A stretch of 64,000 nucleotides of DNA. Source: Octopus vulgaris. Lineage: Eukaryota. The position numbers and the translations under genes are program-made. The stretch is taken from assembly GCA_951406725.2 (NCBI GenBank), contig OX597821.1:23746001-23810000 (forward strand), written 5' to 3'. Positions 31,718-63,091 of this stretch are shown piece by piece; the first letter of the stretch is position 1; the number at the start of each line of letters is the position of its first letter. The notes under the pieces are model-generated. The model saw nothing but the letters and a program-made list of their open reading frames with translations, did not search any database and had not been told where the DNA came from.

Positions 31718-32048
31718 ATATTAACAGTTATCGCCAAGCTAATATGGCAGTCCATAAATATAGGACGAAAGCTGCTGTTGATTAGCTCCAAGAGGCCATC
31801 GCCTCTAGCTAGCTATATGCTAGGTTTGGTCACTCTGCATTGATAAAGGGCAAATACCCTGAAACATGTCTGCAGATGCCTGACCAGCAAGGGGAAGCGG
31901 CTGACCTCCCCTGTTCGTAGGTTATAATGGACACAGGTTCGTGTGTCATATAGCTAGCTAGAGGCGATGGCTTCTTGGAGCTAATCAACGACAGCTTTAG
32001 TCTTATATTTATGGACTGCCATATTAGCTTGGCGATAACTGTTAATAT
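31718..32048. mobile_element. Fold-back element (~100 bp arms) with hammerhead in spacer
   Basis: Arms 31718-31819 / 31947-32048. Confidence 0.9.
31834..31876 (+). ncRNA. Minimal type-I hammerhead ribozyme motif, U3:A8 variant
   Basis: TCTGCA-TTGATAA-AGGG-caaata-CCCT-GAAA-CATG-TC-TGCAGA: 6 bp stem I, 4 bp stem II, palindromic ACATGT stem III, GUC site. Confidence 0.8.
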
Positions 32049-39689: not shown

Positions 39690-41585
39690 CACCACAGGAA
39701 CATGAAAGAGTGGAAAAACTCCTCAATACACACATGGGAATGTGGTGCAACATACTTCAACCCATATTCCTACGCTATACGGGTTACGTAAAGACCATAA
39801 ACCCTAGGTAAACCCCGTTATGGGGCTCTCAACTCGACCAGTTTGCGCTACAAATATCTCTAGCAATTATAGACTATCCTCTTTCCTCTCACAGGTACCA
39901 CGACCACTCACTGAAATGTCCCCAGATGTCTGTGTGAGCACGGGAGGATCTCCTCAGTAGAATCAGTAATTGCAACCACTCCAACGCCCTCACAGGTTGT
40001 GTAATGGGTAGTATGAATGTGATTTCACTCTACCCATCTATAGACAGTGATTTTGCTGTGGAGAAATGCATGGAGATTATCTGAGAGTGAAGTAGAGTTC
40101 CGTGAAGTCAACGCGAAGGAACTGGGCTTCCTCCTTAAACTATGACTGTAACTATCTAGACAACCATGACTATAGTAAATTCTGCCTCACCAGGTCACAG
40201 AGGGGAAGACCACCCACCACCAACTCAGCAGTGAAGAAAAGCACCGTAGAGCACTGGAGTGGCTGGACCATACCCACCCAAGATCCTGAAAACAACAACC
40301 AGGTGAAAGGAGTGATTGCACATGCAGTAAGGGCTAACATAAGAACCACTTTGAGCTACATAGTAAAGTTTAACAGGAAACCATAGATGCCGGTTCAAGG
40401 TGCAGCCATTGGTGTCGGTGTAGCTGGAGATGTGGCTGGTCTCTTCATGACCTGGTGGGACAGAAAACTTAAACAATCCTTAGCTGAACAGTCCACAACT
40501 CTTTTACTTTACTGTAGGTATATAGACGACATTAATATTCTAGTGAAAACCAACTCTAGTAACAGTAATGTGGAAACCGAGAGGAACATAATGGAGAGCA
40601 TCCAGCATGTAGCTAACTTCATCCACAAAGTATCAAGGTAACTATAGATTACTCCACAAGGTACCTTTGGTTAGAGACTGTGAACAACAACGTGCAGCTC
40701 CTCCACTCCTATTGCATGAAACCCATAGCTTCGAAATATGTTGTTCATAAGAACTCGGCTTTTTCACACAACATGAAAATCAATATACTGATAGCAAACT
40801 TAGGATAATGAACAACGTGTCCCCACTATGCAAACCCTATGAAACAAAGAAATATGTACAGAACGTCATGCACCGCATGCAATTCTCTGGATATGATCAG
40901 AAAGATAGGGTTCGGGTATACAAGGGTGCTAGAAAGATGTTAGATAATATTATATGTAATGACTCCAGCGATACCTGCCCTAGATATAGATGTAAAGACT
41001 GGAATAGAATACAAAGAGTTTCTTACAAAGCAAACAGGGTGAACACGTGGTACAAGACCGACAAACATCAAGGAGTGATGTTTGTAGAGGTCACAGTCCA
41101 TGGAGAATTAACCCGTAGACTTAGGAAAGCTCTGAAGGAGACCAAACTCAACATTAAGATCGTTGAAAAGCCAAGGAGCTCCATCAGATCACAACTATGT
41201 AGGACGTACCCCTTTAAGAATACCATATTCACCGATGATAACTACATTGTATGTAAAATTAACCCTGACATTAACTGTTAAACTAGAAATGTAATCTACA
41301 GCATAAGGTGCATAGAAGGCGCTTGTAAAGACAAGAACATGATATACATAGGTGAGACATCTAGGAACATTGCGGAAAGACTAAATGAAAATTTGAGACA
41401 ATATGACGAGAAAAAAAAAACAGTTCTCCATACTCTACCAATATCCCAACATGATAGTAACCTGGGTCAACTTGACATCTGTATTTTATCCAAGCACCCG
41501 AAGGACCCAACACTAAGACAAATACAGGAGAACGTCTTCATAAATGAAACATCCCCAGTACTAAATAGGAAATATACGTAGTAGG
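39690..41585 (+). mobile_element. Penelope-like retroelement, decayed RT plus GIY-YIG endonuclease
   Basis: PTLYGLRKDHK, SMNVISLYPSID, GAAIG, RYIDDI, NVIYSIRC, YIGETSRNIAERLNE across frameshifted ORFs. Confidence 0.9.
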
Positions 41586-43921: not shown

Positions 43922-44682
43922 CGATTTTTAAAAAAATAGATTAAAAGATAATTAATAGGCAGTGCTCCAGTATGGCCAGAGTCAAATGACTGAAACAAAA
44001 AAGAATAAATAAAGAGTGGAAATTTAACCGGTGAGTGTGTTAATGAATAAGGCATTAAAACAGAATGACTCTCCTCAGACACATTAAAATATGCTTCAAC
44101 ACATGAATTCACATAAAGAATCTTGCAAACCAAATACAAAAACGAAATATATATATGTATATATCTGTGTGTGTGTGTGTGTATGACGGGCCTCCTTCAG
44201 TTCCGATTCACAAATATACTCACAAAGCTTCGGTTAGCTCCCGAAGCTATAATAGAAGACATTTACCGAAGATGCCACGCAGTGCGACTGAACCCAGAAG
44301 CACATGGTTGAGAGGCAAGCTTCTCGCCACGCAGCCACGACTGTGCCCGTATATATATATATAAATTTAAGTACGAGTAATCCATGTGGAAGTGGTGTCT
44401 CAAAAGAATTTATATAATGCTAAGAGAGTTGCCTCCCTTGCGCAACTGAGTAAATGTGAGAGAAGCGAAGCCGATGAAGTCTGACAAGTTTACGTAATGA
44501 TGGTCGATTCGCTTTGGCGTTGAATCAAGTAGAAAATATGGACGGAAAATATGGCGGTGCATAGTGTTGTTGTTGTTGTTGTTGTTGTTGCTTCAGTTAC
44601 TGTTTTTATGTAACGAATCAGTTAGGTCGTAATGTTTTGGGAATGGACAATTGTGGAAGAAGACAGACGAGTTGAGAAACGG

Positions 44683-58632: not shown

Positions 58633-59224
58633 ATCCACAAATCAATAACATGTTCGCAGTTTTCAAAGGTTTCCATGTCCGAGCAATGGAGAATATATTA
58701 TTGAGTATCCACTCAATAGAGGATCCGGACGTTTTGTCGTTGAGTGTCACTTAATTGTCATTGATCCGTTCAAGATCTTGCAGGTGCATACTAACTTTAG
58801 TGACGATTGCTTTATTGCTGAGCGTGGCCGATTTTCTCGACCTTTGCTCTATTTGAAAATATAAGAAATAAACTATATACGTATGTATGTATGTATGTAT
58901 GTATGTATGTATGTATGTATGTATGTATATACGTATGTATGTATGTATGTATGTATGTATGTATGTATGTATTATGTATGTGTGCATGTATGCGTGTGTC
59001 TGTGTGTGTATGTATGTATGTATGTATGTATGTATGTATGTATGTATGTATGTATGCGTGTGTGTATGTATTACCTATTCATGGAAATATATGTATGTAT
59101 AAATACTTGTATGCGTGTTTTTATGTATGTATGAGTGTACATATTCATGAATGTATCTATCCATGTAAGTATGCATGTACGTGCATGTGCGTGAGCATAT
59201 ATATATATAATACAACATATATAT

Positions 59225-59477
59225 AAATATTTTCGTCGCTTTGAGACCGCGACCTGTTCACTGACAAAATTCCGTGCTGCACGGAATTTTGTCAGTGAAC
59301 AGGTCGCGGTCTCAAAACGACGAAAATATTTTGGCAAATTAAATTTAAATGTTAAAGTGAATCTAACCGTTTTTGTGTGTTTCTTAAATGGTTTATAAAC
59401 ACCTTCCACGCTGCAATTGTTTTCGTTCCAGCACACGATCTCAGATCAGGTCACTCGCTATGCAAGTACATCTCCGT

Positions 59478-59480
<3 letters not shown>
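59225..59480 (+). mobile_element. Fold-back element: 107 bp near-perfect palindrome plus unique tail
   Basis: Palindrome 59225-59331 centred on 59278, one mismatch; between (TA)n and (CA)n. Confidence 0.85.
59288..59338 (+). ncRNA. Minimal type-I hammerhead motif, G3:C8 variant
   Basis: TTTGTCA-GTGAACA-G-GTCG-(11 nt)-CGAC-GAAA-ATAT-TT-TGGCAAA; 7 bp stem I, palindromic AATATT stem III. Confidence 0.7.
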
Positions 59481-59538
<58 letters not shown>

Positions 59539-62754: not shown

Positions 62755-62785
<31 letters not shown>

Positions 62786-62901
62786 ATATTTCGGAATGGT
62801 CATTTTGCCAGTTTAGCCAATAAAAATACACGCACTATATATTTGGTGTTACTTTGCTTCAGTGTTATTTATTTTTTACATTAATCTTAATCTTATTTCA
62901 G

Positions 62902-62941
62902 CCAGAGTTCTTTCGTCACACTCCTGTGACCACATCAGTGG
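62902..62941 (-). ncRNA. Minimal hammerhead-like motif, A9 substituted
   Basis: CCA-CTGATGT-G-GTCACA-ggag-TGTGAC-GAAA-GAAC-TC-TGG. Confidence 0.6.
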
Positions 62942-63091
62942 TCCTTTGCTTTCTTCTCACTTATTTGTGTCTCTCCTTACTAACCGTCAGCCATTTTGTA
63001 TAGAAAACACGTAGTAATCCTCAAAAGATTTGAACTTGAATTCCAAAATATTTATCGGGAACAAGTACCAAGGGGTAAAGAGCAGCTTTAA

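What the first reader, a model, noticed from the sequence alone, without database searches (positions are those of the whole stretch)
59225..59338. G3:C8 hammerhead in a palindrome that ends at the predicted cleavage site
Core GUGAACA swaps the 3:8 pair by two transversions, hard to explain as decay; stems I (7 bp) and II (4-5 bp) and the AATATT stem III are intact. The inverted arm starts at 59225, the mirror of 59331 (residue 17, UUU site), as if a self-cleaved end defined the inversion, though adjacent TA repeats could blur this.
Basis: partly seen in the sequence, partly recalled or inferred. Interest (0 to 1): 0.85.

Follow-up and report, generated by a model that had tools for sequence, protein, structure and literature searches.

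The report
Swapped-core hammerhead in octopus Penelope element
This palindrome is a stump of an abundant octopus Penelope-like jumping gene whose hammerhead-shaped RNA motif has its two paired core letters swapped across the family (G-C, where related elements have C-G or U-A), so the motif likely still folds and may cut, but copy ends do not gather at the predicted cut site.

Summary
The palindrome and the hammerhead fold are real. The palindrome is a head-to-head insertion of the front end (pLTR, first 31 codons, 'tail') of a Penelope-like retroelement with RT and C-terminal GIY-YIG domains and at least 9,386 copies in an octopus genome. G3:C8 is the family state (91 of 103 copies) and is also present in ORF-bearing copies. 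A sister family (55% protein identity) has C3:G8 at the same place, with compensatory changes in all three stems; a third family has U3:A8 or U3·G8. The swap is therefore a natural compensatory change, not decay. I did not find a natural G3:C8 in the papers I could search; engineered G3:C8 is known to rescue cleavage partly, and this scan earlier noted G3:C8 in phages and a protist element (unchecked). The idea that self-cleavage defined the end fails: 4 of 3,592 copies end at residue 17, no more than neighbouring AT-rich positions. Most 3' ends fall at two tail sites, and 5' ends carry an extra G just upstream of the motif, pointing to capped, uncut templates. Cleavage is untested; this copy is probably inert.

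The parts
59225..59281 (-). Inverted arm: element positions 2-58 (from just after the inferred RNA start to residue 17 or 16.1); lacks the 3' strand of stem I; overlaps the right arm by 3 nt, a microhomology at the junction
59279..59479 (+). Forward arm: pLTR head, first codons and 'tail' of the Penelope-like element; 95.5% identical to an older-subfamily copy, 88% to the ORF-bearing young subfamily
59288..59294 (+). Stem I, 5' strand (pairs with 59332-59338)
59295..59302 (+). Core G3-U4-G5-A6-A7-C8-A9 plus one extra G; G3:C8 swapped pair
59303..59321 (+). Stem-loop II: 5 bp in the family, outer pair broken here by A59317; the loop differs between subfamilies
59322..59331 (+). G12-A13-A14-A15.1, palindromic stem III AATATT (59325-59330) and predicted cleavage residue U17 (59331)
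59332..59338 (+). Stem I, 3' strand
59388..59480 (+). First 31 codons of the element's RT-endonuclease ORF; the frame continues into the ORF in locus L283
59412..59423 (+). First common 3' end site of the family (25 of 68 arms); this copy passes through it
59471..59481 (+). Second common 3' end site (tail end; 37 of 68 arms); right junction of this insertion
59214..59225 (+). Possible 12-bp left target-site duplication in (TA)n; its right partner would be split by the (AC)n run at 59480-59525. Tentative; the automatic survey found no intact duplication here

Best explanation
The palindrome is a short head-to-head insertion of the front end of an octopus Penelope-like retroelement whose family-wide G3:C8 hammerhead motif is likely a selected, dimer-dependent, weakly active variant, and whose left end at residue 17 is likely a rare background end in a TA-rich target rather than a ribozyme cut. 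Shown: family membership, RT and GIY-YIG ORF, family-wide G3:C8, C3:G8 and U3:A8/U3·G8 at the same place in related families, and the end distributions. Inferred: the element's protein nicks AT-rich DNA and copies a capped, uncut transcript that begins about 20 nt upstream of G3. It normally starts at one of two internal sites in the first codons, one for each side of the break, and the two cDNAs join at their 5' ends through a few matching bases, giving the mirror image. Here one side started in, or was trimmed back to, the AT-rich stem III. Inferred: selection on the master copies kept a Watson-Crick pair at 3:8. Untested: cleavage. This copy is predicted to be inert, because any transcript across it folds into a 53-bp hairpin.
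For: Copy number: 1,824 exact matches to a 25-mer spanning the core and 9,386 to a 19-mer spanning the cut site. Upstream in some copies lie a 3' UTR, a Cx3CxxC linker, a GIY-YIG domain (Pfam PF01541, E 9e-5) and an RT with YVDD. L283 runs pLTR, same first codons, ORF, pLTR. G3:C8 is in 91 of 103 distinct arms, none C3:G8 or U3:A8, and in all 13 motif hits in the 8 young ORF-bearing loci. The sister family (54.7% over 815 aa) aligns without gaps across the core with C3:G8 and double changes in stems I, II and III: 4 of 11 pairs, 3 of 500 shuffles as high, slid controls 0-1. The third family has U3·G8 in 10, U3:A8 in 8 and U3:C8 in 1 of 19 arms. Ends: 62 of 68 3' ends at two sites about 57 nt apart and 53 of 68 5' ends at positions 1-17. 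31 of 45 head-to-head pairs have one arm ending at each site. An untemplated G precedes the start in 23 of 42 arms (p 7e-7). Shared flank words peak at 12 bp. Papers: two internal RT starts explain the tail, the hammerhead is not needed for insertion in vitro, and C3G/G8C partly rescues cleavage in a PLE hammerhead (PMC11167929). The G:C swap was the only rescuing double mutant in that region of a full mutational scan (PMC9901934). The whole locus folds as a hairpin at -87 kcal/mol.
Against: No cleavage was measured. The covariation rests on three families, so on few independent events; the shuffle counts are not probabilities, and one of the two third-family rows is a locally duplicated, misregistered copy. 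Within the family no compensatory stem change was seen: subfamily variation is in loop II, one wobble-compatible site in stem I, and outside the motif. The relatives also depart from the canonical core (C at position 9 in 5 of 5 sister copies; U3·G8 in half of the third family; extra G in all three), which fits relaxed catalysis. An extra G is outside the published consensus (H) though present in one of 56 published examples. The extra 5' G could have another source than a cap. No intact target-site duplication was found at this locus, so the origin of the left end is not settled.
Confidence: 0.8

Rival explanations
1. The motif is a hammerhead descendant kept as a fold (a binding or packaging signal for the element's protein, or a translation element before the start codon), with little or no cleavage in the cell.
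For: Templates look capped and uncut. No excess of ends at the cut site in DNA copies and no pile of read ends in three RNA runs (low power). Related families tolerate C9 and U3·G8. Catalytic mutants do not affect insertion in vitro in another PLE (PMC11167929). Published PLE hammerheads cut poorly (PMC4209133).
Against: The 3:8 pair forms in the catalytically active fold (PMC3884650 passage), so keeping it complementary through two transversions is best explained by that fold. U4, G5, A6, G12, A13, A14, A15.1:U16.1 and H17 are shared by all three families.
Confidence: 0.3
2. One reading: the left arm was copied from the 5' self-cleavage product, whose 3' end (residue 17) primed the insertion and defined the inversion.
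For: The arm ends at 59225, the mirror of U17. Positions 16.1 to 1.1 hold 9 of the 18 true ends found between GAAA and 1.1. A rare event of this kind cannot be excluded for one copy.
Against: Only 4 of 3,592 copies (0.11%) end at residue 17 and 4 at the next base. In a 13-nt AT-rich control just downstream the mean is about 0.075% per base, with single positions up to about 0.23%. 0 of 31 core-anchored arms end at 17. 5' starts show no peak at 1.1 (3 of 16; 1 of 68). The junction base is ambiguous with the TA flank.
Confidence: 0.07
3. The left arm was once of normal length (to one of the two tail sites) and was trimmed later by a deletion between the AT-rich stem III and the TA microsatellite.
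For: No intact target-site duplication at this locus. Microhomology deletions starting at this AT-rich spot are common inside other copies.
Against: A 12-base left flank word could be the duplication if the right copy was split by (AC)n growth; 12 bp is the modal length. Other copies end in the same region next to non-repeat flanks.
Confidence: 0.3
4. The hammerhead look is chance or decay in a DNA-level foldback repeat or MITE.
For: No Rfam hammerhead match; weak fold of the window copy alone.
Against: The repeat is the terminal part of an RT and GIY-YIG element; arms have variable inner breakpoints rather than fixed inverted termini; orthologous motifs covary; 0 hits in 20 shuffles.
Confidence: 0.02

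Closest known systems
Minimal type I hammerheads in pLTRs of metazoan Penelope-like elements (Cervera and De la Pena 2014, PMC4209133)
   Same: Type I topology in the pLTR, a nucleotide between 9 and 10.1, G10.1-C11.1, short palindromic stem III predicted to need a dimer, many solo or opposite-strand copies; U3:A8 and U3·G8 cores occur in their examples.
   Different: G3:C8 is in none of the 56 rows of their Figure S3 (their search patterns assumed C3 or U3). The extra base is G rather than the consensus H. Stem I is 7 bp, longer than their usual 4-5.
PAc, the Poseidon element of Anolis (Frangieh et al. 2024, PMC11167929)
   Same: Two internal 3' end sites in the first codons (tail), AT-rich targets, no ends at the hammerhead cut site; engineered C3G/G8C partly restores cleavage.
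   Different: There the swap is engineered and the ORF starts at stem II; here it is natural and the start codon lies 93 nt downstream of G3. The tail is about 57 nt rather than 30-40.
Endonuclease-positive PLE insertion structure (Arkhipova et al. 2013, PMC3846280; Craig et al. 2021, PMC8557442), Neptune-type architecture
   Same: Inverted 5'-truncated pLTR head-to-head with a direct pLTR, junction palindromes, optional tail, target-site duplications, microsatellite targets, C-terminal GIY-YIG with a CX2-5CxxC linker.
   Different: Clade placement was not tested by a tree. Here the inverted arm stops far short of the usual sites.
Natural U3:A8 hammerheads (Perreault et al. 2011, PMC3088659)
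   Same: Natural covariation of the 3:8 pair.
   Different: They report U3:A8 (two transitions from C3:G8); this is G3:C8 (two transversions).

Membership tests
Hammerhead ribozyme (type I, PLE minimal form) | Three helices round the core, ends in stem I | tested here: met
   Stems I (7 bp), II (4-5 bp), III (2 bp, palindromic); double changes in all three against the sister family
Hammerhead ribozyme (type I, PLE minimal form) | Core letters U4 G5 A6, A9, G12 A13 A14, A15.1:U16.1, H17 | tested here: met
   All present at 59296-59331; each in at least 93 of 103 copies
Hammerhead ribozyme (type I, PLE minimal form) | Literal consensus C3 and G8 | tested here: not met
   G3 and C8; no C3:G8 among 103 arms or among the 100 listed of 173 non-G3 copies
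Hammerhead ribozyme (type I, PLE minimal form) | Watson-Crick pair between positions 3 and 8 | tested here: met
   G:C here, C:G in the sister family, U:A or U·G in the third
Hammerhead ribozyme (type I, PLE minimal form) | Extra base between 9 and 10.1 is H (published consensus) | tested here: not met
   It is G in all three families; one published example has G
Hammerhead ribozyme (type I, PLE minimal form) | Self-cleavage 3' of residue 17 | not testable with these tools
   No assay; indirect DNA and RNA end tests showed no signal
Rfam hammerhead families | Score at or above a family's gathering threshold | tested here: not met
   No match; the C3:G8 sister motif is missed too
Endonuclease-positive Penelope-like element | Single ORF with RT and GIY-YIG endonuclease | tested here: met
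   RT with YVDD and C-terminal GIY-YIG in family copies; Pfam named only GIY-YIG, the RT is read from motifs and from relatives named reverse transcriptase
Endonuclease-positive Penelope-like element | pLTR that includes the ORF start, partial tandems, inverted 5'-truncated copy, optional tail | tested here: met
   L283 tandem; 45 head-to-head against 43 solo layouts; two 3' end sites
Endonuclease-positive Penelope-like element | Target-site duplication in AT-rich DNA | tested here: inconclusive
   Family: 42 of 70 insertions with non-dinucleotide flank words share 8 or more bases, mode 12; this locus: no intact duplication
Neptune clade of PLEs | CX2-5CxxC linker before a C-terminal endonuclease | tested here: met
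   Cx3CxxC in this family, Cx4CxxC in the sister (definition from PMC8557442 passages)
Neptune clade of PLEs | RT falls in the Neptune clade of a tree | not tested
   No labelled reference proteins were fetched; Nematis shares a linker motif
Non-LTR retrozyme | Head-to-tail tandem units, each with a hammerhead | tested here: not met
   This locus is head-to-head, and sampled copies are solo or head-to-head

The most novel reading that the evidence does not exclude
A catalytically competent natural G3:C8 hammerhead, undescribed in animals, fixed in a retroelement family of about ten thousand copies, within one Penelope-like clade where the 3:8 pair takes four states (C:G, U:A, U·G, G:C) at the same site. 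That is a natural allelic series for asking whether and when PLE hammerheads cut, and it implies that C3/U3-based searches miss whole families.
Probability: 0.5. Interest if true: 0.55.

Novelty: new variant of a known kind. Interest (0 to 1): 0.4.

Why it matters
The C3:G8 pair of the active hammerhead fold was shown by structure and by engineered swaps; natural support in the papers I saw is U3:A8 only. A natural G3:C8 with orthologous C3:G8 and U3:A8 relatives completes that picture and suggests selection on the active fold in PLE hammerheads, whose role is still open because they are dispensable for insertion in vitro. The end counts add genome-scale support that insertions are copied from capped, uncut RNA, so any cleavage would act elsewhere in the cycle. 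Search patterns that fix C3 or U3 will miss such families. It is not a new kind of ribozyme or a new insertion mechanism.

Tried and rejected
Rfam, whole window at gathering thresholds and the locus by E-value: no hammerhead; the microRNA matches only reflect the hairpin and are far below their thresholds. Sequencing-run search: no holder on record as RNA, which says nothing about expression. RNA reads of three runs (about 6 in 100 of each run; 1,414, 1,113 and 1,022 reads laid on a young copy, L283:4694-5200): no place where many molecules begin or end; both strands about equal; 88-90% of reads run on into unrelated sequence; depth beyond the tail is 7 or less. These are ordinary cDNA libraries dominated by passive copies, added by species label, so the test has little power. 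Metagenome scan for relatives: 1 weak locus, not used. I first read the sequence before the common 5' start as an intron end; positions further upstream are not shared among copies that lack the genomic upstream sequence, so a transcription start plus cap-derived G fits better, though an intron is not excluded. A MITE reading from the short terminal match was dropped once the ORF was found. A two-copy cofold gave an intermolecular stem I pairing, not the stem III dimer; such energy models do not capture the catalytic fold. Papers not held: Lunse et al. 2017 on PLE hammerhead variants, Przybilski and Hammann 2007, Hammann et al. 2012; any of them may report a natural G3:C8. File 1 of the PMC4209133 supplement could not be searched.

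Full report
Observation. The arms 59225-59277 and 59279-59331 pair at 52 of 53 positions and stop pairing at 59224/59332. The right arm plus seven further bases fits a type I hammerhead: stem I 59288-59294 with 59332-59338, core GUGAACA at 59295-59301, an extra G at 59302, stem II 59303-59307 with 59317-59321, GAAA, the palindrome AATATT, and U17 at 59331. The one arm mismatch is a private G-to-A change at 59317 that breaks the outer pair of stem II in the right arm. A hammerhead descriptor gave 2 hits in the window and none in 20 block shuffles. Rfam has no match.

It is one copy of a large repeat. The window lies in a 2.8-Gb genome. The right arm continues to 59479 as a unit of about 205 bp. 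Exact pattern counts are 1,824 for a 25-mer across the core, 4,072 for a 23-mer downstream and 9,386 for a 19-mer across the predicted cut site; these count arms, and some are later duplicates of one composite. The genome is an octopus: a related element's protein is 98.9% identical to an NCBI entry labelled Octopus vulgaris.

The repeat is the end module of a Penelope-like element. Some copies share upstream sequence (486 exact matches to the junction). It leads through about 950 bp of repeat-rich 3' UTR into an ORF ending in a Cx3CxxC linker and a GIY-YIG domain, preceded by an RT with YVDD. Locus L283 shows the partial tandem: pLTR, then the same first codons as window 59388-59480 running on into the ORF, then a second pLTR. 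This matches the published PLE layout: direct and inverted pLTRs, ORF start inside the pLTR, optional tail (PMC3846280 and PMC8557442, passages). The linker suggests Neptune-type architecture; I did not build a tree.

G3:C8 is the family state. Among 103 distinct arms chosen without anchoring on the core, 91 are G3:C8 and the rest have a change or gap at one of the two sites; none is C3:G8 or U3:A8. Of 173 copies with another base at 3, the 100 listed include no C3:G8; four are A3:U8 and two U3·G8, which looks like scattered decay (read by eye). All 13 motif hits in the 8 young ORF-bearing loci are identical G3:C8 motifs with a different loop II. Subfamily-level variation inside the motif is limited to loop II and one wobble-compatible site in stem I; stem II otherwise shows CpG decay.

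Related families show the swap is compensatory. A sister family with many near-identical copies and a 1,312-aa frame is 54.7% identical over 815 aa, and its N-terminus matches ours (37%, E 8e-47). Its pLTR aligns without gaps across the core: C3:G8, with double changes at one pair each of stems I, II and III. That is 4 of 11 pairs changed on both sides, reached by 3 of 500 shuffles, against 0-1 in slid controls. It has C at position 9 in 5 of 5 distinct copies. A third family, found from an ORF-start match in the window and 20 fetched loci, has U3·G8 in 10, U3:A8 in 8 and U3:C8 in 1 of 19 arms, with a further double change in stem II. These are three lineages, so few independent events, and one third-family row is misregistered. 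Since both relatives and the published examples have a pyrimidine at 3, G3:C8 is probably the derived state (inference).

The end at residue 17 is not special. Of 3,592 copies carrying the anchor up to GAAA, 104 diverge before position 1.4 (100 listed). I checked 30 supplied loci, 20 more picked by eye as possible ends, and the window; the other 49 were judged from the printed letters to be indels or internal deletions. Eighteen are true ends (one pair is a duplicate): 6 at the first three positions, 3 at 16.2, 1 at 16.1, 4 at residue 17 including the window, 4 at 1.1. Control: of 9,386 copies, 364 diverge in the 13 AT-rich bases just downstream; among the 100 listed I fetched 40 places picked by eye plus one held locus and found 25 true ends. 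Scaled, that is about 0.075% per base with single positions up to about 0.23%, against 0.11% at residue 17 and 0.063% per base over the test window (the test pattern has one more filter letter, so it undercounts by roughly a fifth). A small excess cannot be excluded; a cluster can. Of 31 core-anchored distinct arms none ends at 17 and two end at 16.2.

Where ends do fall. In 68 distinct arms anchored downstream of the motif, 25 end near 59412-59423 and 37 near 59471-59481 (window equivalents), and 53 begin at positions 1-17, upstream of the core; 1 begins at 1.1. Among 30 loci enriched for starts near the cut site (of 239 matches), 16 were true starts, 3 of them at 1.1 and 4 two bases earlier. 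Head-to-head layouts are as common as solo ones (45 against 43, a rough count of distinct layouts), and 31 of the 45 have one arm ending at each of the two sites. In arms that reach the common start without the genomic upstream sequence, the preceding base is G in 23 of 42 (p 7e-7 against 0.2), where the template has a pyrimidine and the bases further up are not shared. I read this as copying of the 5' cap (the cap-G signature is recalled from LINE biology, not from a call). Flank words shared on both sides peak at 12 bp.

Mechanism. Frangieh et al. (PMC11167929; parts 1-2 of 4 read) showed for another PLE that reverse transcription starts at two internal sites in the first codons, that the target is AT-rich, that hammerhead mutants still insert, that no RNA reads end at the cut site, and that C3G/G8C partly restores protein-assisted cleavage. 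The family here fits that: two cDNAs, likely one from each side of the break, copied to the capped start of an uncut RNA and joined by short homology (3 nt at 59279-59281). The left arm is a rare short product or a later trimming; which one is open. Any transcript across this locus is predicted to form a 53-bp hairpin (-87 kcal/mol), and the left arm lacks the 3' strand of stem I, so this copy is probably inert.

Comparison with what is known. PLE minimal hammerheads with an extra base, a palindromic stem III and weak dimer-dependent activity are described, including U3:A8 (PMC4209133; parts 1-2 of 4 and supplement file 2 parts 1-2 of 3 read); none of the 56 rows of its Figure S3 has G3:C8. 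Natural U3:A8 is also in PMC3088659 (passages). Engineered G3:C8 rescue is in PMC8495972, PMC3884650 and PMC9901934 (passages). Searches for a natural G3:C8 or for an octopus hammerhead found none, but three key papers were not held, so absence from print is not established. PMC6765202 and PMC6155905 were seen as passages and the 2026 retrozyme preprint as part 1 of 5. Earlier unchecked notes of this scan report G3:C8 in phages and behind a protist PLE, and short PLE copies starting just before the motif in a shark-like genome.

Verdict. Observation confirmed; interpretation half right. A natural, family-wide G3:C8 variant of the PLE hammerhead with good comparative support and no proof of cleavage, in an ordinary PLE insertion. 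New variant of a known kind; interest 0.4.

Noticed in passing
window 62778-63001 (- strand): A pLTR-plus-tail copy of the sister Penelope-like family (96% to L289) with the C3:G8 motif, ending in (TA)n; position 9 reads U here, C in other copies.
   Followed up: partly
window 39713-41572 and 44020-44146 (+): A decayed third Penelope-like element (RT and GIY-YIG, 38-54% to the other two families) and, 2.5 kb further, its likely ORF-start and tail repeat; the hammerhead part is missing here. Other copies carry U3:A8 or U3·G8 cores. The link between the two pieces is inferred from position.
   Followed up: partly
window 31832-31875, inside inverted repeats spanning about 31722-32047: Another hammerhead-like motif with a U3:A8 core and palindromic stem III (ACATGT) near the centre of a head-to-head repeat; probably a further PLE family.
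   Followed up: no
L245:3226 and 3796, L085:883, L276:2808, L249:1464, L102:1978, L124:700: Further hammerhead-like motifs with U3:A8 or C3:G8 cores and palindromic stem III in unrelated repeats of this genome.
   Followed up: no
L034, L035, L046-L048, L057, L059 and many of L165-L205 (contig C1): One head-to-head composite of this family with identical junction and flanks has been multiplied dozens of times along C1, so it rides in a larger repeat; collapsed before the end counts.
   Followed up: partly
L289:2763-6701: The sister family's ORF has a long asparagine-rich insert before the RT, as described for rotifer Penelope elements, and many near-identical copies, so it is probably recently active.
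   Followed up: no
G000:C27:32597006-32599596: Seven copies of the motif in tandem at about 426-bp spacing, all with the same altered stem I; a local tandem array.
   Followed up: no
L176 (G000:C1:67342993-67352906): Three repeats of a head-to-head composite at about 4.5-kb spacing.
   Followed up: no
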